NCBI GenBank assembly: GCA_030603365.1
Contig: JAUVXV010000004.1
Location: forward strand, 1-64,000
Source of the DNA: Candidatus Heimdallarchaeota archaeon
GTDB lineage: Archaea; Asgardarchaeota; Heimdallarchaeia; Heimdallarchaeales; Heimdallarchaeaceae
DNA: 64,000 bases
Reading direction: 5' to 3'
Shown: one piece after another, positions 18,226 through 32,100 of the stretch
Numbering within the stretch: position 1 is the first letter of the stretch
Layout: each line of letters opens with the position of its first letter
Program-made: the position numbers and the translations under genes
The notes under the pieces: model-generated
Told to the model about the DNA's origin: nothing
The model's database searches: none
Seen by the model: only the letters and a program-made list of their open reading frames with translations

Positions 18226-20220
18226 TCATCGTTTTCTTTTATATCCTGCAAATTCAAAATGCCAGAATGCATATCCTTCAGAAGCTGCTCTTAATTCTGA
18301 AGCGATCTGTAAAGATGATTTTACACTTATTTCTCCTGTTATAATGGTTTTTGAACCAATATGTTCAGTATCTTCGATTTCGCCTCCAAATCTCTGCATT
18401 ACAGTTAGTACAGATCCTAGATAGTGAAGCGGTGTGTTAACTGTGAACCTATAAAGTGGTTCATATATACCAACATTTCCATCTATCATTGCTTCATGAA
18501 TAGCATTTCTTACAAGTGGAATAATGATTTCATACCTGAAGGAATTGGGTTCTATTTCTTCTATATCTTCTACTATTAGATGAAGTTTGCGAATAGGAAA
18601 TCTTTTGAGTGGTCCCTTAAAAATCGCATTTTTGAAGCCTTCCCTTAGTAAATCTAAGATTTCTTCTGTTGTGTTCACAAATTTAACTTCAAGACAGTTA
18701 TCTTTGTAATCACTGTATATACAGTCTTCATTTTCTTTACTATCTTCTTCAAAAGGCTTACAACTTATAGTAATTTGTAAAAGATCTAGTTGGTCTTTTT
18801 TCTGCAGAGATACTTCTTTATCAATTTGCTCTACTAGATTTACTTCTGGATTAGATACTTCTACAATTATGTTTCCCTTTTGAATTTCACCTAGAATGAT
18901 TTCTAGTTGCAATTCTCCTATTCCAAATATCTTAATCTCTCCAGTATTTTCATCTACATTGTAATGAAAATTAGGCTTGATCAATGATAAAATTTCTAAA
19001 ACTTTAAGTAATTTTGGAATATCAGAAACTCTTTTCGGTTCTATTCTTTGAGAGATAACAGATTCTTGAAGATATGGTATTTGCTTGAAAAGAATATTAG
19101 GGAAATCTTGAATATCATCAACAAAAGTGTCACCAATTTGTACGTTCTCTAATCCTATAAGGACAGCAACATTCCCCGCTCCTACTGAATCCATAGTAAT
19201 AAGAGATTGACCTTTATAGACACAAACCTGTTGTATTCGAGTTACTTCTCCTGTTCTTCTATTGCGAAGTATTGAACCAGATTTTACTTTACCTGAAAAA
19301 ACTCTAGTTACAGCAATAAGGCCTCTATTATCTTCATGTAAAAGTTTTCCCAAACAAATTATAGTAGATCCTTTATCATCACAGTTAGCTAGTGAATCTT
19401 CTGCCTTTTTATCTAAGAATTGTGTGATTAGCTTAGACCGATTCTTTTGCCCAACTTTTGGATTGGGTACGTTTTCTATAATAGCAACCTTAAAAGAGTC
19501 AATTAGAGTGTATTCTTTTTTTAGAATATCAACTTGATTCTCTAAATGATGCTGAATTATTTGTTCAAATGGAGGAATGTTCTTAGAGTATGCTGAAATT
19601 GCCCAACCATGAAGTGCTGAACCAATTAGAACAGTCCCATTATCGAATCTTACTTTCCATTCTTTGTTTAATTGCTCTAGAGAATACTGTTCAATTAGTT
19701 CATTTATCATCTGTATTATATTATTAATTCTTGTTTCGATTTCTTCTTTTGGTAATTTTAATTCATTTATAAGTCTATCAACTTTATTTATGAAAAGGAT
19801 TGGTCTTAGACATTCATTCATAGCTTGTTTGATTACAGATTCTGTTTGAGCCATTACTTGTTCTACTGCATCAACGACAATAACGACGCCATCAACAAGT
19901 CGCAATGCTTGCGAAACCATACCTGAAAAATCAACATGACCAGGTGTATCTATAAGATTAATTAAAAAATCTTTATCCTCGAAGCTAGATATAAGAGAGA
20001 TATTTGCTGTTTTTATAGTAATACCTCTTTTTTGTTCTTCTTCTAGGTAGTCTAGAGCTCTAGCTGTACCAGCCATTGTTCTCGAAATTAACCCTCCGGC
20101 TTGAAGTAAATGGTCAGATAGTGTAGTTTTGCCATGGTCTACGTGACTCACAATACTTACATTACGTATATTGGCTTTGTTTGTCATTAAATTAGAGATG
20201 CTATCAGTGTAAGAGCTCAT
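18226..20220 (-). CDS. Elongation factor 2 paralogue (aEF-2p-like), diphthamide loop degenerate
   Basis: SHVDHGKTT, RGITI, DTPGHVDF, NKVD; no HxDxxHRG in domain IV. Confidence 0.85.
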   Translation of the reverse strand: MSSYTDSISNLMTNKANIRNVSIVSHVDHGKTTLSDHLLQAGGLISRTMAGTARALDYLEEEQKRGITIKTANISLISSFEDKDFLINLIDTPGHVDFSGMVSQALRLVDGVVIVVDAVEQVMAQTESVIKQAMNECLRPILFINKVDRLINELKLPKEEIETRINNIIQMINELIEQYSLEQLNKEWKVRFDNGTVLIGSALHGWAISAYSKNIPPFEQIIQHHLENQVDILKKEYTLIDSFKVAIIENVPNPKVGQKNRSKLITQFLDKKAEDSLANCDDKGSTIICLGKLLHEDNRGLIAVTRVFSGKVKSGSILRNRRTGEVTRIQQVCVYKGQSLITMDSVGAGNVAVLIGLENVQIGDTFVDDIQDFPNILFKQIPYLQESVISQRIEPKRVSDIPKLLKVLEILSLIKPNFHYNVDENTGEIKIFGIGELQLEIILGEIQKGNIIVEVSNPEVNLVEQIDKEVSLQKKDQLDLLQITISCKPFEEDSKENEDCIYSDYKDNCLEVKFVNTTEEILDLLREGFKNAIFKGPLKRFPIRKLHLIVEDIEEIEPNSFRYEIIIPLVRNAIHEAMIDGNVGIYEPLYRFTVNTPLHYLGSVLTVMQRFGGEIEDTEHIGSKTIITGEISVKSSLQIASELRAASEGYAFWHFEFAGYKRKR

Positions 20221-22185: not shown

Positions 22186-23760
22186 TTAAAGCTCAGTTAA
22201 TTCTTTTACTTTAAATGGAATTTTATTTTCCTTGAATTTTGATTGAATAAAGGAAAACAGATCTTTAGCTTCTTCTTGTTTCTCAATTTGACATATTATA
22301 TGTTTATCATATTTCATTTTTGCAATGAAAGTAACGGTTTCGAACCAAAGGTTACTGAGCATTTCTTCTGATATAACTGAGGAAAAAACATATTGACTGA
22401 ATGGAAAAGTCTCACTAAGTTCAATAGGAAGAAGACCGATAAAAGGAACAAGAAACGCAAAATCATACTCATTTGATGTTTCTGTAACAAATTTCTTTAC
22501 ATCTGGTCTTGAATAAAGAAATTCTGTTGGATTCTTCCACCCTGATGAAATGAGGATAACAAGTTTAGAACTTTTAGGTTTAAAAGAATCATACATTTGA
22601 GTTCTAGCCCTTGTATATTCGGGTCGGTAGAAAGAATCTTCATCATAGATTTTCAATCCAATTTGCTTTGTAACTGGTGTAGCAAATTCAAGAAAGTCTC
22701 CCTTAAATTCATCGATTATAAACTTGAAAGCTCTATATAAAGCGGGGTGTGATTTCGATCTCCTTTCCAGCAATTCCCATAAATTCCCATCCTTAATGCT
22801 TACTTTGATGTTCTTAATCTCCGCTTGAGAAACATATAGGTTATGTAAAGCAATGTTTCGTATTCTGGATTCTTTATCAGATTCTAGGAGTTCCTTAGAT
22901 GTCCATTTTGAACAGATCTCACAGGGACATGGGAGTTCTAATAAGTCGGATAAATGGTAGGTTCCTGAGGTTGTCATATAACGGTTCTCTTTGGCATATA
23001 AGATATACGCTGCACTATCGAAAGTATCACAACCTAAAGCTACTATAAAGGGAAAAATCATTGGGTGACCTGCACCAAATAAGTGAAAAGGTATGTTATG
23101 AGGAAGCAATTCTCTTGCTGTTTTTATCATAGAAAATAAACTTGTGAAGTCATACCGTGACATTAAGGGTGCTACACTACCAAGAGCATGAAAATTAAAA
23201 CTCTCAAGATAATTCTTTTGTTTTACTGTTTCTATATATTGCTTTAGTAAATGAATGTTCTTTCCTCCCTGTATGGGGAGTGTCCATACTGTTTCTGGAT
23301 GACTGTTAATATATGGTATAGATATTTCAACACGTCTAATTGTCTCTTCGACTTTCTGCTTAGCTTGTGTGTATGTGTCGGTAGGAGGAGTTGGTACATC
23401 TAAGATGACTCCTACATCGGTCCCTAAATTAGTTTGAATAGTAAGAGATTGTATAGGATCTATTTCAACATCACCATATACAAGAACTTGGTAGGCTCCA
23501 CTATCCATCATTATATTTCCATCATAATCCAGAGTCTTATGTATGTCATCAGAGCTAGACGGCATCCCAAATCGTTTGAAATAAAGGTAAGCACTTGTGA
23601 TCACAAAATTGAAACCGAATTTTTTCTTCATATCCTGAGGTGGAATAATATTGTTCTTAGGGTCTATTACTGGTAAAAGTGTAGGAGTCACAACTTCCCC
23701 CTTTGGTAGTAATACTTTGCCTATTCTTCCGTGTAAATCTGAGGATGTTATTTCGTCCAT
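22186..23760 (-). CDS. tgtA: Archaeosine tRNA-guanine(15) transglycosylase
   Basis: MMDSGAYQ, PIQGG, HLFGAGHP, DTFDSAAY, CPCEIC, HNL. Confidence 0.94.
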   Translation of the reverse strand: MDEITSSDLHGRIGKVLLPKGEVVTPTLLPVIDPKNNIIPPQDMKKKFGFNFVITSAYLYFKRFGMPSSSDDIHKTLDYDGNIMMDSGAYQVLVYGDVEIDPIQSLTIQTNLGTDVGVILDVPTPPTDTYTQAKQKVEETIRRVEISIPYINSHPETVWTLPIQGGKNIHLLKQYIETVKQKNYLESFNFHALGSVAPLMSRYDFTSLFSMIKTARELLPHNIPFHLFGAGHPMIFPFIVALGCDTFDSAAYILYAKENRYMTTSGTYHLSDLLELPCPCEICSKWTSKELLESDKESRIRNIALHNLYVSQAEIKNIKVSIKDGNLWELLERRSKSHPALYRAFKFIIDEFKGDFLEFATPVTKQIGLKIYDEDSFYRPEYTRARTQMYDSFKPKSSKLVILISSGWKNPTEFLYSRPDVKKFVTETSNEYDFAFLVPFIGLLPIELSETFPFSQYVFSSVISEEMLSNLWFETVTFIAKMKYDKHIICQIEKQEEAKDLFSFIQSKFKENKIPFKVKELTEL

Positions 23761-23815
23761 CTTTCTTAACCTACCATTATTAAAAAAATAAAAAGAAATA
23801 TCTTAAATGTAATTA

Positions 23816-24235
23816 TTATGCTTTTTCTGCTTTGTACTTGTCGTAGATTTTTTGAATTCGTTCAGATATAGGTCCTGAGCCTTTAACTCCCTCTTCACTT
23901 ACAGTAAATCTATCAAAAACCTGAATTATTGCGGCCTCTTCAATGACTTTAACATTCTGAGGTTGGAACATTTGAGATAATTCACTTGCTAAACCTTGTA
24001 AGTCAAAGGGTTCTTCAGCTAAAGTTATTTCCACGATGTTCCTTCCTGTAATGAAGACCCTATAATAGTAATCTTTGTTACAAGTAGCATCTGCCAAGAC
24101 TACATTAAGCGAGGTATCTTGTATTCCACGTAGTACACCAGTGTATATGTTTCCATTATTCATTGTGAGTTTAACTCTCTTATTTACAAGTCCACTTAAT
24201 TCAAGCAGAAATTCACGATTTGGGTTTGCTGGCAT
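23816..24235 (-). CDS. Sm-like protein with C-terminal domain (SmAP3-like); start revised to MPANPN
   Basis: Sm1/Sm2 motifs YTGVLRG..LNVVLADA, ITGRNIVEI; C-terminal EPFDL..VSEEGVKGSGP. Confidence 0.85.
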   Translation of the reverse strand: MPANPNREFLLELSGLVNKRVKLTMNNGNIYTGVLRGIQDTSLNVVLADATCNKDYYYRVFITGRNIVEITLAEEPFDLQGLASELSQMFQPQNVKVIEEAAIIQVFDRFTVSEEGVKGSGPISERIQKIYDKYKAEKA

Positions 24236-24297
24236 AATTATCAATGCAAGCTCAAAGTTGCTATAAAAAAATGTTATGATTAGCGATATTGAGAGAA

Positions 24298-26313
24298 TCA
24301 CATCAAAAAAGGTTTTAATTCACTGTTTTTTATAGTGTTTTTAATTCTATCTTTTAAATCTCTGTGAACTATTGTAACAATTGGACATATTTCTGAACAT
24401 TGGTTGCATTTGGTACAGTTTGCTTCATCAACATAGATAATACTATCTTGAATTGTTATCGCTCCAACTTCACATTTTCCAATACATAGTTCACAATTTA
24501 TACATTCAAGAGCTCTCAAAATTGTATAGGTGAAATTTTCTATTACTTTCCGGACACTCATATCAGTAAGATTCTTTTGCTTACGAAAATTAATTTTGAA
24601 AGTTCCATCTGAATAGAGTATTACAGAATACTTCTTATTGAACACCCTGACAAAATCTAACTTTCGATTTACTTGAACTCTCCCTATCATTATTAAGGCA
24701 CTGGAAACTCTTTGTAGATCAATTTTATTCGAAAAATTACCAATAATACTTAATGGCATTGTAACACAATCGCTTGATTCTATTTGAAAAGCTCTTAATT
24801 CATTATTAGGTGAAATGGATTTAATGTTGCTATGGTCAAGAGATAAAGCACTAATAATTTTCTTAGGTATATTTTTGAACCTCCATAAACCATAACGCCA
24901 GTAATCATCTGACAAACTTTTTTCATCTTTCCACTTATCTACTGCTGCATGAAGTTTCTCATATAATTCAGTATGATTTTCTTTAAGAATGTTCAATTGA
25001 GCCATATCAGATGATGGGCAAACCCAACAACCTATTCTTTCATAACCGGTATCATAAAGCGGATTATAGGGTAAGTCCTTCCACATTATGTACATCCATA
25101 TCAAAAGAGAGGTCCAATTCTGTATAGGGGAAACATTAATTTGATTTGAAATATAGGAGTTTTGCCAGACATCAGATCCTGTTCTTTGAAATGATTCATA
25201 TCTTCGCTGACCTACAAAACTGATACATTGTTCACCTTTGTATATCCTATCAATTGCTCTTTTAATTGGAGCAAGTTTAGCAAATTTACAACAATATCTA
25301 AAGTCTCTTCCTGGAGGGCCAAACTTGTCAAATGCATTCCAAAAAACTTCTGTCGATACTCGTTCGATAATTAACTTATCCTGAAAACCAAGCATTCGAC
25401 TACTTTCTTCTACATACTTTACAGTTTCCGGAAACTCAATTCCTGTATCTATAAATAGAACTTTAAAATCAGTATCTGGTAATGCTTTACTAACCAATGA
25501 ATATGTGACTAGACTATCTTTTCCACCACTATAAGAAACCATTAAGGGTAAACCAAAATCGTCTTTGATCTTATTTATGAATTCTATAGCTGTACTTTCT
25601 AGTTTCTCAAGCTCCCTTCTATTCAACTCAATTACATCTTTCCATGTTCGTTTAAATATTCTTGGTCTATATTCCTTGTCAACAGCACGATAGTTCTTTG
25701 CATAAACACCCTTAGTATGTTCTTGTCTTTTCGCTTCATCTATTCTAGCAATGCCTCCCGCAACTATATTGAACTGTTCATCAACTATTGCAATGTAGTC
25801 TCCATTAATAATATCAGGATCAGCATCTAGTACGCCTGGAATAAGAACACTAGCTCCTTGAGATATTTTCTCTTTGGCTATTTCATCAACTTTAACCCAT
25901 CGTTTGGATATCTTCTTATTCAATAGCGATAATCCATTTACATTAAGCTTGATTTGCCATTTGCTGGATCTCAAATCATATCTTCTTGTACCAATGCTAT
26001 TACCATAGAAAATTATCTCTTCCAACTGATCCTCTGACCCTACATGATTGAGTAGAACAATGTCTTCTTTTTGTATTATATTTGTATTCTCACCAAAGTT
26101 AGTTTCTATTAGTTTCTTTATTTCCAGGACTTCTTTCTGCGTTGCAGGCCTTACATCAAAAGGAGGAGTAAGTTGAACTTTTCTTACATTTTTTTCACAT
26201 ATTGGACACTTATCAGTTATGATAATAGGAAGGGAACAATCATGACAATAGAATAAAAGATTTGGTCCAAGGTACGGGATGTTTTTCTTACTTCTTTTTT
26301 TACTAGGTCCGAT
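24298..26313 (-). CDS. PAPS-reductase-family protein with N-terminal Zn ribbon, PUA and 4Fe-4S domains; extended 96 codons beyond the ORF track to an apparent ATC start
   Basis: SYSGGKDS, RYCC, RIGCWVCP, two CxxCxxCxxxC; upstream frame open and encodes YLGPNLLFYCHDC..CPIC..TPPFDVRPA. Confidence 0.85.
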   Translation of the reverse strand: MGPSKKRSKKNIPYLGPNLLFYCHDCSLPIIITDKCPICEKNVRKVQLTPPFDVRPATQKEVLEIKKLIETNFGENTNIIQKEDIVLLNHVGSEDQLEEIIFYGNSIGTRRYDLRSSKWQIKLNVNGLSLLNKKISKRWVKVDEIAKEKISQGASVLIPGVLDADPDIINGDYIAIVDEQFNIVAGGIARIDEAKRQEHTKGVYAKNYRAVDKEYRPRIFKRTWKDVIELNRRELEKLESTAIEFINKIKDDFGLPLMVSYSGGKDSLVTYSLVSKALPDTDFKVLFIDTGIEFPETVKYVEESSRMLGFQDKLIIERVSTEVFWNAFDKFGPPGRDFRYCCKFAKLAPIKRAIDRIYKGEQCISFVGQRRYESFQRTGSDVWQNSYISNQINVSPIQNWTSLLIWMYIMWKDLPYNPLYDTGYERIGCWVCPSSDMAQLNILKENHTELYEKLHAAVDKWKDEKSLSDDYWRYGLWRFKNIPKKIISALSLDHSNIKSISPNNELRAFQIESSDCVTMPLSIIGNFSNKIDLQRVSSALIMIGRVQVNRKLDFVRVFNKKYSVILYSDGTFKINFRKQKNLTDMSVRKVIENFTYTILRALECINCELCIGKCEVGAITIQDSIIYVDEANCTKCNQCSEICPIVTIVHRDLKDRIKNTIKNSELKPFLM

Positions 26314-26326
26314 TTTTTACACCTAC

Positions 26327-27346
26327 TCACATCTCTCTAAGTAATTTCATAAGAATTCTTGGAATTTGCTTATGACTAGACACTTCTGCATATTTTCCTC
26401 TACCCAATCTAGCGAGATCTTTACAAACACGTCTACCCCAATCATGTTTACTCGGAAGCGATATAACATGAAGTTTTGGGAAGTATTTTAGAAGAGCACG
26501 AGGATCACCACCTCTATTGAACGCACCATCAGTTACAATAATACCAAATTTATTTTTCTTCTTTATTTTAGCAAGCTCGAGTCCTCCGTACCTTAATCCC
26601 TCAGCTAAATTTGTATAGCCTGCACTTTCACTTTCTAGAATGCGGTTAATTAGTTCATCTGAATTCAGTCTTTCTTTCATTCTTTTGATAGTATAGGCTT
26701 TTGTATTGAACAGTACTACGCTGAAATTATCCCTAGAAAGATTATAAGCCATAACAGCTACAGTTAATGCTGCGGTAGTAAATCTTTCCCCATAGAGTGA
26801 ACCTGATGTATCAAACATCAATACAGCAGTTTTCATTCTTTCTTTTTTCTCTAAACTAACAATATCTTCCGTATTTAGTATTCTGCTTCTGTTCTCTAGA
26901 AAACGTTCCATAGTTTCATCAAGATCGAATTCATCCAATCCAATTTCATATTCGGTTTGTTCAAAGACTTCTCCCCTGATACCTTGACTAGTGATTCCTG
27001 TAGCTGTTGTCATTATCACTTGTCTAGCTAATCTACGAAAAACTGGACGCATTCTATCATCTAAAGCTGAACGAAGCATGAAAAATAATTCAGGAGCACT
27101 ATTATCTCCTTTTGAAGCTCTTCGAGCTATCATGGTAAAACCTTTTTTTGAGTTGAGAGCTTCTGCAACTGCAAATTTGTTTGATATTGCCATACCTTGA
27201 ATTGCAGGCATATTATCTACGTCTATCGCTAACTCTGTTTGTTTCTTAATCTCATAATAACTCATACCTTCTGAGAGATTAGAATAAACTGAAGGGTTTC
27301 TCTTACCTGAAACTATTTCAGCCTCAAGTAACCTACCCTTATCCAT
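26327..27346 (-). CDS. VWA-domain protein (CoxE-like), possibly expressed as a -1 frameshift fusion to MoxR
   Basis: MIDAS motif DTSGS, YTN, VTDG. Confidence 0.88.
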   Translation of the reverse strand: MDKGRLLEAEIVSGKRNPSVYSNLSEGMSYYEIKKQTELAIDVDNMPAIQGMAISNKFAVAEALNSKKGFTMIARRASKGDNSAPELFFMLRSALDDRMRPVFRRLARQVIMTTATGITSQGIRGEVFEQTEYEIGLDEFDLDETMERFLENRSRILNTEDIVSLEKKERMKTAVLMFDTSGSLYGERFTTAALTVAVMAYNLSRDNFSVVLFNTKAYTIKRMKERLNSDELINRILESESAGYTNLAEGLRYGGLELAKIKKKNKFGIIVTDGAFNRGGDPRALLKYFPKLHVISLPSKHDWGRRVCKDLARLGRGKYAEVSSHKQIPRILMKLLREM

Positions 27347-27405
27347 TTTCCCTCGAAAGACAAAAGGCTTCTGGAAATCTTCTAACGGTCCTCCACTTCC
27401 CTCAT

Positions 27406-28332
27406 CTAGAAAAAATCCAACTCTTTGAAGGCACTTGTAACAATGTTACGAATTACATCTTCAACCTGACTTTCGACACCATCTTCTAATTCAATTTTAG
27501 TAGCTAATGCCATTATAGAACCATCAATCCATGATTCCATATCATTAACTTCAAGGAAACGAATTATAGCTGCTAAATCAATTGCACCTCTTATAGAAGC
27601 TCCTCTTCTTAAATCAGGCCAATCCCTTGTTTGTCTAACAATTTTAACAGCAATTGTAATTACTTTATCCTCTTTTATACCTGTACGAACACTAACAATA
27701 TTTTTCTCTTCTTCTTCAGATTGATATTGTAGTCTTATCCAAACAAATCGATCTCTTAATGCTTCACTTAATGGAGTTGTAGCAACAAGTTCAGCAGGAT
27801 TCATTGCACTTATTATGAAAAATCCTTCTTTTGCTTTAATCTTTCCAAGTTTGGGGATAATAACAATTCCTTCATCCATTGCCGCTAATAAAACATTTTG
27901 AGTTCCTTCGGGCATCCTGTTTAATTCATTCAGAAATAGTATTGCCCCTTGTTTCATAGCTTTTGTTAAAGGTCCTGTAACAAAGGAATCCCAAGAATAT
28001 CCACCTTCTATTACCATTGGAGGATCAAAATGACCTACTAGTTTTGCAGAACTGTATCTTTCATCTCCATCAACACGTTCTAAATCTTGACTGAAATATG
28101 AAGCTAAAGCATGAGCAAGAGTTGTTTTCCCAACACCTACATCTCCTTCCAATAAAATGTGTCTATTTGCTAATTTAGCAGCTAAACATTTACGAAGTTC
28201 TTCTGTTCTTCCGACTATATTGAATTGATTTTGAATTTCTTCAATCATCTCATCAATAGTTTTATCTTGCATCACTGTGCCTTCCATCGTTGTATCTTTC
28301 CCACTAAAATTTTTGCTCTTAATTTCGAACAA
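27406..28332 (-). CDS. MoxR-family AAA+ ATPase
   Basis: LLEGDVGVGKTT, LNELNR, AMNP, LSEALRDRF. Confidence 0.92.
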   Translation of the reverse strand: MFEIKSKNFSGKDTTMEGTVMQDKTIDEMIEEIQNQFNIVGRTEELRKCLAAKLANRHILLEGDVGVGKTTLAHALASYFSQDLERVDGDERYSSAKLVGHFDPPMVIEGGYSWDSFVTGPLTKAMKQGAILFLNELNRMPEGTQNVLLAAMDEGIVIIPKLGKIKAKEGFFIISAMNPAELVATTPLSEALRDRFVWIRLQYQSEEEEKNIVSVRTGIKEDKVITIAVKIVRQTRDWPDLRRGASIRGAIDLAAIIRFLEVNDMESWIDGSIMALATKIELEDGVESQVEDVIRNIVTSAFKELDFF

Positions 28333-28441
28333 TAGTTTTATACTACAAAGTTTTAAATACTTTTAGATATTTGGGTTATGCAAAAAATAAGTTTTTCTGT
28401 GATTTCTATTTCTTTCTGCTTTGTTCATGAAAAAAATGAAA

Positions 28442-29047
28442 CTAATTTTCTTTGAGCGCAATTAAGATAGCTGATTGTACATTCTTTGAAAATTTTGTAC
28501 CTAAAGGACTTATTTTCTTTTTTGATGTGAAATCTTCATTTACAACCTCAACTGGTACTTTATTGTGAAAAATATCATTTAATCTTCCAACAATTTCATC
28601 TTTGATTTTACCCCCACCTTGTCCAACTTTTATCACTACTCTAGCTGTTTCGATATTGAAGAAGACTGTTATTGCTTCCTTTACAGCATCAACAGCTGTA
28701 TAGAATTCAGCATTTCCTAAAATAATTTTTTTTTCAGCTATCACCACAAAACCGGTTGTTTTTCCTGGATCTACACCAATGGCGATTTCATTAAAATAGT
28801 CCCTTTTTGTAGCTAATAAATAGATATTTGAGAACAAGTAATAACGATTGAAAGCTTTAGGAACAAATATTGTTTTAAAATTGATAATTTTCTTTTCTAT
28901 TTGAGTTGTAATTATAATATCTGTATTAGAAGGAATTGATTCGTTAGGTAAAATGTGATTAATTTTAATTTCTTTTATATCAGATAGAACTTCATTAAGT
29001 TTATACAAAAACCTAAAATTCTTAGTTGCTATAATTACGCTAATCAC
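28442..29047 (-). CDS. RNase H-fold (YqgF-like) domain protein
   Basis: IAIGVDPGKTTG and VVNEDFTS motifs. Confidence 0.7.
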   Translation of the reverse strand: MISVIIATKNFRFLYKLNEVLSDIKEIKINHILPNESIPSNTDIIITTQIEKKIINFKTIFVPKAFNRYYLFSNIYLLATKRDYFNEIAIGVDPGKTTGFVVIAEKKIILGNAEFYTAVDAVKEAITVFFNIETARVVIKVGQGGGKIKDEIVGRLNDIFHNKVPVEVVNEDFTSKKKISPLGTKFSKNVQSAILIALKEN

Positions 29048-29173
29048 AGCTTAAACAAATTGCTCATCTTAATAAAGCTTTATCACTTTATTAATTTGAT
29101 ATAAGTTAAGAAACAGATAGAAAATTATGTATCTCTACAAATAAAGATGATTTAACAAATAAAAAATTAGCAA

Positions 29174-32100
29174 ATGAAAGGAATGGTGGATCAAATAACG
29201 GATAACAACAATCTATCTATCAGCATTCAGTCATATTTTGACATGCTTAACAAACGATTAAAGAAAATCTACAATATTGCATCTAAAGCTAGAAAACAAG
29301 GATTAGATCCGGCTCCAGAAGTAGAGATACCAATTGCAAAAGATATAGCTGATAGAGTAGAGGGATTAATTGGTCCAGAGGGAATTGGAAAGAAAATACG
29401 AGAATATGAAAAGAAAAATTTTTCTAGAGAACAAGTGGCATTTAAGATAGCTGAAGACATTTGCCAAGGAAGATTAATTCAAGGTTCTAAGGAACAATTA
29501 GCAGATCAAGCTCTTCGTAGCTCTCTTGCAGTTATTACAGAAAGTATTACCGCTGCACCAATTGAAGGGATTGCAAAAGTTAAGATTAAACGAAATGATG
29601 ATGGTTCTGAGTATTTAGCTATATATTATGCAGGACCTATACGTTCTGCTGGTGGAACAGCAGCTGGAATGAGTGTACTATTAGCTGATTATATTAGAAA
29701 AAATTTAAAGCTAGCTGAATATCAAGCGGATCAGAGAGAAGTTGAACGCTACTTAGAGGAGCTTGAATTATACAATAGAGTAAGTCATCTTCAACTTCCA
29801 ACTTCGAAAGATGAACAAAGATTTGCAGCACAAAGTCTACCAATAGAGATTACTGGAGAACCAACAGACAAGGTTGAGGTTTCAGGAAATCGTGATCTTA
29901 GAAGAATAGAAACAAACCGTCTCCGTGGGGGTGCATGTCTAGTCTTTAATGATGGTCTTGTTGGTCGTTCAAAAAAGATATATCGAAGGGTTGTGGAAAA
30001 TCGTTTAGAAGGGTGGGATTGGCTTCAAGAACTAATCAATATTCATGATAAAGTAGGACATGCAGTTAATGGTGATAATATACAAGATCATTTTATAGAT
30101 GAAGAGGATTTGGAAGTTCTTTCAGATGAAGGCTATATTAAGGATGTAATAGCAGGTCGTCCTGTTTTTGCACATCCTTCTGAAAGAGGAGGGTTTCGAA
30201 TAAGATATGGGCGATCACGAACAACTGGTTTAGCTGGAATGGGTATTCATCCTGCTTTAATGGGTGTAACAGATGACTTTCTAGCTTGCGGGACTCATGT
30301 CAGAACAGAAAGACCAGGCAAAGGAGCTATTGTGATGCCTGTCGATACTATTCACCCTCCTATTGTGAAACTGAACAATGGTGATGTAATAAAGGTTCAA
30401 ACCTACAAAGAAGCTAAGAACCTTAAAGGGAAAATAAGTGAAATCTTATTTTTAGGAGATATGCTCTATGGTGTAGGAGAATTCAATCAGAATAGTTATG
30501 ATTTAATTCCTGCTGGATATTGTGAAGAATGGTGGTCGCAAGAGTTAGAAGAACAATATATGGACATATCTGCAAAGGATAAAGATCTATTATCTAAAGA
30601 ATTAGAGCGTAGAATTAAACTTTTCATAAAAAACCCTAATTCCAATGTTCCTGCTGCTGATGAAGCCTTGGTTCTATCCAAGGTTTTCGATATCCCCTTA
30701 CATCCAGAATACACTTTTCATTGGTCAAACATAACAATTGATGATTACATTCTTCTTCGAAATTATTTTGTAGAAAAATCCTCCAAGACAACCAACGGAA
30801 TAGAAATACCATTTGATGACAATGTTAAAGATATTCTGGAATGGATATATATTCCTCATAAGGTTAGTGATGGAAAAATAAAACTGGAAGGATATAGCTC
30901 TCCAATGCTAGTTTGTTTAGGTATTCAAAATGGAAAATCTAAACCTATTGATGGTTCACATGAGAAAATTCTTGATTTAATCAATTCGATAAGCGGAATC
31001 AAGATTAGATCCAAATGTCCAGACTATACTGGAGCAAGAATGGGAAGACCAGAAAAAGCTAAGGATAGACGAATGAAACCACCTGTTCATTTACTATTTC
31101 CTATAGAAGATAAAGGTGGAAGACTTCGAGATTTATATAAAGCATCAGAAAATAAATCAATAGCAATTGAATTAGCAAAACGCTATTGTCCTGAATGTGG
31201 TAATTTCATGAATGCCTCTTTATGTGTTTCATGTAACAAAGTCACAGAATTTGCACGAAGATGTAGCTATTGCAAAATTAAGACAGAAAACGAGGAATGC
31301 TCAAAATGTGGGAGAAAGACTGTAACTTACGATAGAACTGAATTTCCAATTGCTAGTAGGGTTAGAAAAGCAAAACAAACCATTGGAGGTTTACTACCAA
31401 AAAACGTCAAAGCTGTAAAAAAGTTAATGAATAAAAATAAGGTTCCAGAACTAATTGAAAAAGGAATTTTGAGAGCTAAACATGGTATTTTCGTATATAG
31501 AGATGGCACCACTAGATTTGACTCAACAGATGCCGTTTTAACACATTTCAAACCTAGTGAAGTAAGCATCAGTATTCAACAGTTACATGAAAATGGATAT
31601 ACTACAGATATTCACGGGAAAACGTTAGAAAATGAAGAACAGATTGTTGAATTAAAAATACAAGATGTCATAATAAATGAAGATGGAGGAATTCATTTAC
31701 TTAAAGTTTCAAATTACATAGATGAGTTGTTAGAAAAAGTATACAAACTTCCTCCATTTTACAAAGCTAAAAAGCCTGAGGATCTAATAGGAAAAATTAT
31801 CCTTGGTTTAGCACCTCACACATCCGCAGGGATTACCGGAAGAATAATAGGTTTTACAAAAGCAAAAGTAAACTTTGCACATCCATATTGGCATGCAGCG
31901 AAACGCAGAAATTGTGATGGTGATGAAGATTCAATCATTCTAGCTTTGGACGCATTTCTGAATTTTTCTAAATTCTATCTCCCAGAAATAAGAGGAGGTA
32001 AGATGGATGCTCCTTTAATCTTGGTAGCAAACTTAAATCCACATGAAGTAGATGACGAATCTCATAATGTTGATACTTGTTCTAAATACCCTCTATCTTT

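What the first reader, a model, noticed from the sequence alone, without database searches (positions are those of the whole stretch)
27340..27420. Probable -1 programmed ribosomal frameshift fusing MoxR ATPase to the VWA protein
Seen: MoxR ends GA-T TTT TTC TAG, a canonical X XXY YYZ slippery heptamer (U UUU UUC, 27415-27409) directly before its stop. The -1 frame is open from there (FLDEGSGGPLEDFQKPFVFRGK) into the VWA ORF. Eight nt downstream, GGAAGT/ATTTCC can pair, and loop GGAGG could pair with CCTTT (possible pseudoknot). Established: chelatase chlD-type genes produce an AAA-only and an AAA-VWA subunit from one gene by -1 frameshifting. Inference: analogous recoding sets MoxR:MoxR-VWA stoichiometry in an Asgard archaeon. 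A GAGGG close to the VWA ATG allows independent initiation as an alternative.
Basis: partly seen in the sequence, partly recalled or inferred. Interest (0 to 1): 0.78.

Follow-up and report, generated by a model that had tools for sequence, protein, structure and literature searches.

The report
Conserved Asgard frameshift joining MoxR-VWA
In this Heimdall (Asgard) archaeon and about a hundred related loci, an ATPase gene and the partner gene behind it are best read as one message on which some ribosomes slip back one base, so the cell makes both a short ATPase and a long ATPase-partner fusion; this is inferred from sequence comparison only, and in most Asgard lineages the signal includes a kinked RNA hairpin not known before as a frameshift trigger.

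Summary
The heptamer (27415-27409), the stop and the open -1 frame are as described. This is the only one of 2,755 long ORFs in the genome that ends U_UUU_UUN-stop. Of 114 Asgard orthologous loci, 101 are -1, 10 are +1 (at UUU_CGN) and 3 are fused in frame but keep UUU_CGN. The 66-nt spacer before the VWA ATG evolves as protein in the -1 frame and has no start codon here, so it must be reached from MoxR.

(2) The pseudoknot is not supported. (3) In most other families a covarying kink-turn sits at a fixed +9 or +12; here it is degenerate, but intact in this genome's paralog. It works like frameshifted chlD but is not ChlD. No paper on it found; no RNA or protein evidence. The scan has noted this system, kink-turn included, on other DNA.

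The parts
27406..28332 (-). MoxR-type AAA+ ATPase ORF (308 aa from TTG 28332; the true start may be ATG 28287 or 28272). Walker A 28146-28123, Walker B region 27939-27925. 0-frame product.
   Evidence: (AAA_5 E 8e-22)
27412..27418 (-). Upstream heptamer G_GAU_UUU; the register conserved across Asgard families (also A_AAU_UUU/C, G_GGU_UUU, A_AAC_CCU)
27409..27415 (-).
27406..27408 (-). MoxR stop codon TAG directly 3' of the slippery run
27347..27409 (-). Start-less -1-frame linker (21 codons) between shift site and ATG 27346; evolves as protein; disordered in the model
27373..27403 (-). Degenerate 3' element: GA at +9 (27403-27402), G-rich arm 27401-27395 and arm 27378-27373; positionally the C-helix of the kink-turn of sister families, but the GAU bulge and second GA are missing
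27350..27354 (-). GAGGG, SD-like, with GAGG ending 4 nt before ATG 27346 (genome mode 7 nt); also the conserved Arg-Gly codons
26327..27346 (-). Helical domain plus VWA domain ORF (339 aa from ATG); MIDAS DxSxS at 26812-26798, T at 26620-26609, D at 26536-26525; C-terminal part of the predicted 668-aa fusion

Best explanation
moxR and the VWA ORF form one recoded gene. Most ribosomes stop at TAG 27408 and release the AAA+ ATPase alone (about 290-310 aa). A fraction slips back one base on the U-run while Asp/Phe tRNAs (G_GAU_UUU) or Phe/Phe tRNAs (U_UUU_UUC) occupy the P and A sites, reads ...D-F-F-L-D-E..., crosses a flexible linker and makes an ATPase-VWA fusion (about 650-670 aa). Both sites give the same junction. 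Pausing is most likely supplied by the adjacent stop codon plus a 3' RNA element about 8 nt downstream: a kink-turn hairpin in most Asgard families, only a weak leftover stem in this family, where a doubled slippery run is fixed instead. The likely purpose is a hexameric MoxR ring in which a minority of subunits carry the VWA/MIDAS adaptor that grips a client protein, as NorD does for NorQ. Shown here: sequence, phase, conservation, coding signature of the linker, covariation of the kink-turn elsewhere. Inferred: that ribosomes (not RNA polymerase) slip, the efficiency, L7Ae binding, the mixed ring and the client.
For: Phase: 101 of 114 Asgard orthologous loci from 18 family labels are -1. In 97 distinct junctions the -1 frame has no stop in the 60 nt after the MoxR stop, against 90 with a stop in +1 and 55 in frame 0. 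Linker: last 10 codons before the ATG give 783 synonymous to 128 non-synonymous single-base codon differences in the -1 frame, against 29:764 and 20:648 in the other frames; its length varies only by whole codons (63/66/69 nt). No start codon in this linker in the window; 27 of 101 loci have no ATG/GTG/TTG within 90 nt of the site and 47 have no ATG. Site: 91 of 101 have a perfect X_XXY_YYZ, G_GAU_UUU or a U6 run in register. [quoted passage not shown] Kink-turn: in 35 distinct junctions anchored without regard to pairing, 156/175 C-helix and 98/140 NC-helix cells pair, against 127+/-3.6 and 63+/-4.6 after permuting partners (0/10,000); with one sequence for each of 13 families, 2 and 1 of 5,000 permutations reach the observed values; swaps include G-C/A-U and G-C/C-G. 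Background for such a motif is about 1% or less per codon position. Convergence: ten loci in three families use the +1 frame at UUU_UUU_CGN, and three in-frame fusions keep the same motif, where a +1 slip meets a stop within 3-5 codons, so two products are predicted in all three layouts. The paralog in this genome has A_AAA_AAA, -1 phase and an intact kink-turn.
Against: No RNA, ribosome or protein evidence: the one RNA run laid does not cover the junction. In this family no 3' structure is conserved, the kink-turn is degenerate and the stem is no better than shuffles, so the stimulator at this very locus is unexplained. An ATG is invariant at the start of the folded domain in this family (27/27), with a GAGG 4 nt upstream in a genome that uses SD sequences. 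Ten of 101 loci have only an imperfect heptamer. Orthologues are kin, so counts overstate independence. A few distant archaeal homologues reach the -1 phase by a plain ATGA overlap (L167, L169, L181).
Confidence: 0.88

Rival explanations
1. Two ordinary genes: VWA is made only by (re)initiation at ATG 27346, and the U-run and phase are by-products.
For: ATG at this position in 27/27 loci of the family; GAGG 4 nt upstream; SD sequences are used in this genome and the anti-SD is present; residues before the Met are disordered in the model; ATGA-coupled homologues exist in some Thermoproteota.
Against: The start-less linker shows a strong coding signature only in the -1 frame and only whole-codon indels; 47 of 101 orthologues lack any ATG near the junction; the SD spacing is at the tail of the genome's distribution (25 at 4 nt, 166 at 7 nt); it does not explain heptamers, a fixed-distance kink-turn or UUU_CGN in fused genes. 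It remains possible as an additional source of free VWA.
Confidence: 0.05
2. Transcriptional slippage: RNA polymerase adds a U (or drops one in the +1 families) on the T-run, and ribosomes read the altered mRNA normally.
For: A T6 run lies at the site here; one kind of run serves -1 and +1 layouts in different families; no RNA reads across the junction were available.
Against: 53 of 101 -1 loci have runs of 5 T or fewer, one has none; the conserved unit is an in-register heptamer whose first three bases covary (GGG, AAA, GGA); the 3' element sits at ribosome-footprint distance; +1 loci need a CGN codon after UUU. From general knowledge, polymerase slippage usually needs longer runs.
Confidence: 0.05
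3. Assembly error or recent lesion in a simple fused gene (true T7).
For: Homopolymer errors are common; fused homologues exist.
Against: The same phase and a stop in about 100 independently assembled loci, with the stop varying among TAG, TAA and TGA; a public contig spans the site without a gap.
Confidence: 0.01

Closest known systems
Frameshifted chlD ('magnesium/cobalt chelatase') genes (Antonov et al. 2013, PMC3711429; Kuznetsov et al. 2022, PMC9227772; Atkins et al. 2016, PMC5009743)
   Same: AAA+ module followed by a VWA module in another frame; slippery site at the end of the AAA+ part; downstream stem; short and long subunit from one mRNA; -1 more common than +1; fused homologues exist; some carriers lack the large chelatase subunit.
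   Different: The ATPase is MoxR/NorQ/GvpN-like and far below ChlD cut-offs (TIGR02031 21.5 bits against 499.55; TIGR02442 28.4 against 779.45). The site is U-rich (G_GAU_UUU, A_AAU_UUU, U_UUU_UUN) rather than A_AAA_AAR; the stimulator in most families is a kink-turn; Asgard archaea are not mentioned in the passages read.
NorQ/NorD and CbbQ/CbbO MoxR-VWA chaperone pairs (PMC9976466)
   Same: Nearest solved AAA+ relatives include NorQ and CbbQ; the best fold matches of the VWA part are NorD chains in NorQD complexes (E about 1e-7, TM about 0.43); MIDAS intact. NorQ is a hexamer with one NorD.
   Different: There the two are separate genes and the adaptor has no AAA+ module; the client is known (nitric oxide reductase, Rubisco), while here neighbours are not conserved beyond the family and no client is evident.
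Kink-turn hairpins in archaeal l7ae 5' leaders (Daume et al. 2017, PMC5539422; Huang et al. 2019, PMC6298567)
   Same: [quoted passage not shown]
   Different: These sit in coding sequence 8-11 nt 3' of a slippery site, not over a ribosome binding site; L7Ae binding is untested; the window's own copy fails the consensus.
Saccharolobus solfataricus fucA1 -1 frameshift (PMC8211752)
   Same: Archaeal chromosomal gene with an X_XXY_YYZ site; the only case shown experimentally in archaea according to that review.
   Different: fucA1 is strain-restricted and its short product is a fragment; this signal is conserved across a phylum and both products are probably functional.
Viral shift sites: umbravirus G_GAU_UUU (-1) and influenza PA-X UCC_UUU_CGU (+1) (PMC5009743)
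   Same: Same heptamer with a stop 3 nt downstream in the window; same UUU_CGN core in the +1 and fused Asgard lineages.
   Different: Cellular archaeal genes; the resemblance is by motif only.

Membership tests
Programmed -1 ribosomal frameshift | In-register slippery heptamer in the 0/-1 overlap | tested here: met
   27415-27409 and 27418-27412; overlap 37 nt
Programmed -1 ribosomal frameshift | Conservation of site and phase, and coding selection on the -1 frame from the site onward | tested here: met
Programmed -1 ribosomal frameshift | 3' stimulatory structure 5-9 nt downstream | tested here: inconclusive
   Met in most other families; in this family only a weak, partly conserved stem, pseudoknot not met
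Programmed -1 ribosomal frameshift | Transframe product shown at the protein level with unaltered mRNA | not testable with these tools
   No RNA cover of the junction; no proteomics
Frameshifted chlD (ChlD/BchD/CobT medium subunit) | AAA+ module of the ChlI/ChlD family | tested here: not met
   TIGR02031 21.5 bits (cut-off 499.55), TIGR02442 28.4 (779.45); best Pfam AAA_5
Frameshifted chlD (ChlD/BchD/CobT medium subunit) | AAA+ then VWA with a frameshift between them | tested here: met
Frameshifted chlD (ChlD/BchD/CobT medium subunit) | A_AAA_AAR shift site | tested here: not met
   U-rich here; A-rich in this genome's paralog and in bacterial homologues
Frameshifted chlD (ChlD/BchD/CobT medium subunit) | Overlap with the published fs-chlD gene set (e.g. 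the Spirochaeta genes without a large subunit) | not tested
   Those sequences were not fetched; spirochaete homologues with A-run -1 junctions appear, so the wider family may touch that set
MoxR AAA+ / VWA pair | Clade-7 AAA+ with intact Walker A/B next to a VWA protein with MIDAS | tested here: met
Standard kink-turn (window copy) | C-helix, 3-nt bulge, tandem G.A/A.G, NC-helix | tested here: not met
   5' GA and C-helix present; the bulge strand reads AGA-AG
Standard kink-turn (orthologues of families f2, f3, f4, f10, f12, f14, f15, f17, f19, f20, f24, f25, and the paralog) | C-helix, 3-nt bulge, tandem G.A/A.G, NC-helix with covariation | tested here: met
   in f14 the C-helix is only 2 bp
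Standard kink-turn | Folds and binds L7Ae | not testable with these tools
   An L7Ae-like gene and an L30e-like gene are present in the genome; binding not tested

The most novel reading that the evidence does not exclude
Asgard archaea (and some Hadarchaeota/Thermococci-labelled genomes) carry an ancient chromosomal frameshift whose stimulator is a kink-turn bound by L7Ae, i.e. a protein-assisted frameshift that ties the ratio of AAA+ to AAA+-VWA subunits to the free pool of a ribosomal/sRNP protein. Lineages that lost the kink-turn replaced it with a doubled slippery run (this family), a plain hairpin (f5, f7) or a +1 shift at UUU_CGN (f6, f21, f23), always keeping two products.
Probability: 0.4. 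Interest if true: 0.88.

Novelty: new variant of a known kind. Interest (0 to 1): 0.7.

Why it matters
Only one archaeal chromosomal frameshift has been shown experimentally (fucA1; PMC8211752). This one is conserved across nearly all Asgard families sampled, uses shift sites known from eukaryotic viruses, and can be tested in cultured Asgard archaea or in reporters. It would mean that this VWA gene is mis-annotated (wrong or missing start) in many genomes, that recoding to build mixed AAA+ rings extends from chelatases to MoxR chaperones, and, if the kink-turn works through L7Ae, that a new class of frameshift stimulator exists in the closest prokaryotic relatives of eukaryotes.

Tried and rejected
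Pseudoknot as drawn: no loop between the first stem's 5' arm and the second helix, an 11-nt middle loop, second helix paired in 39% of cells and no better than slid controls: rejected. Conserved hairpin in this family: RNAalifold finds none; mean z -0.5. Rfam: no match in 26000-29200. Promoter/terminator scan: nothing above shuffles and not suited to archaea. Reads: only contigs were available; the RNA run covers 26600-26836 and 27947-28089, not the junction, so it says nothing; runs with small word shares were not used for habitat. The search for related loci with the VWA alignment failed for lack of conserved words. Neighbour clustering found no partner gene conserved beyond single families. 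My first anchoring rule mis-placed several heptamers and was replaced; L099's stop was mis-called and corrected. The tree is the quick version without bootstrap; no one-clade test was run, so the order of events is tentative. Literature searches for MoxR+VWA+frameshift, kink-turn+frameshifting+L7Ae, Asgard+ribosomal frameshift and Heimdall+frameshift gave no paper on this system; the library lacks most subscription papers, and Antonov 2020 was not read.

Full report
Observation. The MoxR ORF (28332-27406, - strand, 308 aa) ends GAT TTT TTC TAG; the heptamer T TTT TTC is at 27415-27409 and the stop at 27408-27406. The VWA ORF (ATG 27346 to 26327) lies in the -1 frame, which opens at 27445 and has no ATG, GTG or TTG before 27346. 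A shift gives 308 + 360 = 668 aa from the TTG start. Pfam gives AAA_5 and VWA. Among 2,755 long ORFs of the genome only this one ends T TTT TTN-stop, and only two ORF pairs have a terminal heptamer, an open -1 overlap and a late start: this pair and its paralog on contig C17. Close relatives are labelled Heimdallarchaeota, AB_125 among them.

Conservation. I fetched 114 orthologous loci from relatives and from across the phylum. 101 are in the -1 phase, 10 in +1 and 3 fused. The stop codon varies (TAG, TAA, TGA) and sits 1, 4, 7 or 19 nt after the site, so this is not an assembly error; a public contig also spans the T6 run without a gap. In 97 distinct junctions the -1 frame is never closed in the 60 nt after the stop, the +1 frame is closed in 90. 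In this family the spacer before the ATG changes almost only at synonymous positions of the -1 frame (783:128) and only by whole codons, though no start codon precedes it in the window. 47 of 101 loci have no ATG within 90 nt and 27 have no ATG/GTG/TTG at all.

Which site. Aligned across families, the constant unit is the heptamer that ends on the first Phe codon: G_GAU_UUU (47 loci), a perfect X_XXY_YYZ such as A_AAU_UUU/C, G_GGU_UUU or A_AAC_CCU (25), other (29, of which 19 have a U6 run). Both registers give the same junction, so sequence cannot choose between them. G_GAU_UUU followed one codon later by UAG is the pea enation mosaic virus site, where the stop matters (PMC5009743).

3' element. 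In most other families, however, a GA dinucleotide sits at +9 (f25 and the paralogs: +12) wherever the stop lies, followed by a short helix, a loop, the complementary arm, a GAU-type bulge and a second GA whose flank pairs back: a standard kink-turn (definition and both polarities in PMC6298567). With anchors chosen without looking at pairing, both helices pair far above partner permutations, also with one sequence per family, and show compensatory changes. The Promethearchaeota-type family f14 has the opposite polarity in 17/17 loci, with a C-helix of only 2 bp. Background is 0.35-1% per codon position. Hadarchaeota- and Thermococci-labelled loci L143 and L145 show the same site and kink-turn. 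The window keeps the +9 GA and a C-helix-like stem but not the bulge strand. On the quick tree this family nests among kink-turn-bearing families, so loss looks derived; this was not formally tested. The paralog of this genome (L058) and about 20 relatives have A_AAA_AAA, -1 phase and an intact kink-turn. L7Ae-like and L30e-like genes are in the genome.

Other layouts. Families f6 (8 loci), f21 and one f23 locus put VWA in the +1 frame and all have UUU_UUU_CGN at the end of the ATPase; in f6 the +1 frame reads F-G-P with synonymous Gly codons while frame 0 varies. CGG is the rarest Arg codon in this genome. Three f23 genes, and L161, are fused in frame yet keep UUU_UUU_CGN, where a +1 slip meets a stop within a few codons. 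UCC_UUU_CGU is the influenza PA-X +1 site. Distant bacterial homologues are mostly -1 with A-runs, most Thermoplasmata homologues are plain fusions, and some Thermoproteota use an ATGA overlap. Selection thus seems to act on having both a short and a long product.

Protein function. Nearest solved relatives of the ATPase are midasin modules, NorQ and CbbQ; it is far below ChlD and CobS cut-offs. The model of the -1 product (pLDDT 87) has a disordered first 21 residues, a helical domain and a VWA fold whose best matches are NorD chains. NorQ works as a hexamer with one NorD (PMC9976466), so a minority fusion subunit in a ring is the natural reading; this is inference. Neighbours are conserved only within families, so no client is named.

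Rivals. Independent initiation at ATG 27346 is possible as a second route (ATG invariant in the family, SD used in the genome, but GAGG is 4 nt from the ATG against a mode of 7) and cannot explain the linker. Polymerase slippage is unlikely because half of the loci have five T or fewer but was not excluded with RNA reads.

Novelty. The principle is known from frameshifted chlD; I found no paper on this MoxR-VWA family, on Asgard frameshifting or on kink-turns as stimulators. Earlier notes of this scan describe the same system on other genomes; I reached the site, kink-turn and +1 readings before opening them (notes) and do not count them as support. One earlier +1 reading in other archaea is marked as having fallen on later check, for reasons not shown, so the +1 part deserves extra caution. 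Verdict: real, new variant of a known kind, frameshift 0.88, L7Ae-dependent kink-turn mechanism 0.4, interest 0.7.

Noticed in passing
L058 (G000:C17, MoxR stop near 69682): Second MoxR-VWA pair in this genome with A_AAA_AAA, -1 phase and an intact kink-turn at +12; conserved in about 20 relatives.
   Followed up: yes
L045-L050, L107, L108, L101, L103: Orthologues with VWA in the +1 frame and UUU_UUU_CGN at the ATPase end; f6 and f21/f23 fall in separate parts of the quick tree.
   Followed up: partly
L104-L106, L161: In-frame fused Njordarchaeota-type genes keep UUU_UUU_CGN at the end of the ATPase, with a +1-frame stop soon after: predicted truncating frameshift.
   Followed up: partly
L063, L064, L102: Fused paralogs of 600-650 aa have an A-run (up to 9-10 A in L063 and L064) just after the ATPase, with stops close by in both other frames: possibly a dnaX-like truncating slip.
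   Followed up: no
L062:144-2903 (- strand offsets, G031): A stand-alone AAA+ gene overlaps by 4 nt a 643-aa gene that begins with a second, degenerate AAA+ module and ends in VWA: a ChlI/ChlD-like two-gene layout of the same family.
   Followed up: no
L143, L145: Genomes labelled Hadarchaeota and Thermococci carry the Asgard-type site and kink-turn.
   Followed up: partly
L068: A second copy in an f20 genome is f5-like in sequence and signal; transfer or binning contamination (that genome has 11% contamination).
   Followed up: no
window 18226-20220 (-): 664-aa EF-2-like ORF, shorter than canonical aEF-2; possibly the Asgard EF-2 paralog.
   Followed up: no
window 22186-26025 (-): Downstream string: PUA/PP-loop/ferredoxin protein (PRK13795-like, below cut-off), Sm-like protein, tRNA-guanine transglycosylase-like ORF; the first is linked to MoxR-VWA only within this family.
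   Followed up: partly
G000:C1 about 260490-260545: The leader of the L7Ae-like gene holds a kink-turn-like sequence (AAU bulge-GA ... GA) overlapping its SD, like the known l7ae leaders.
   Followed up: no
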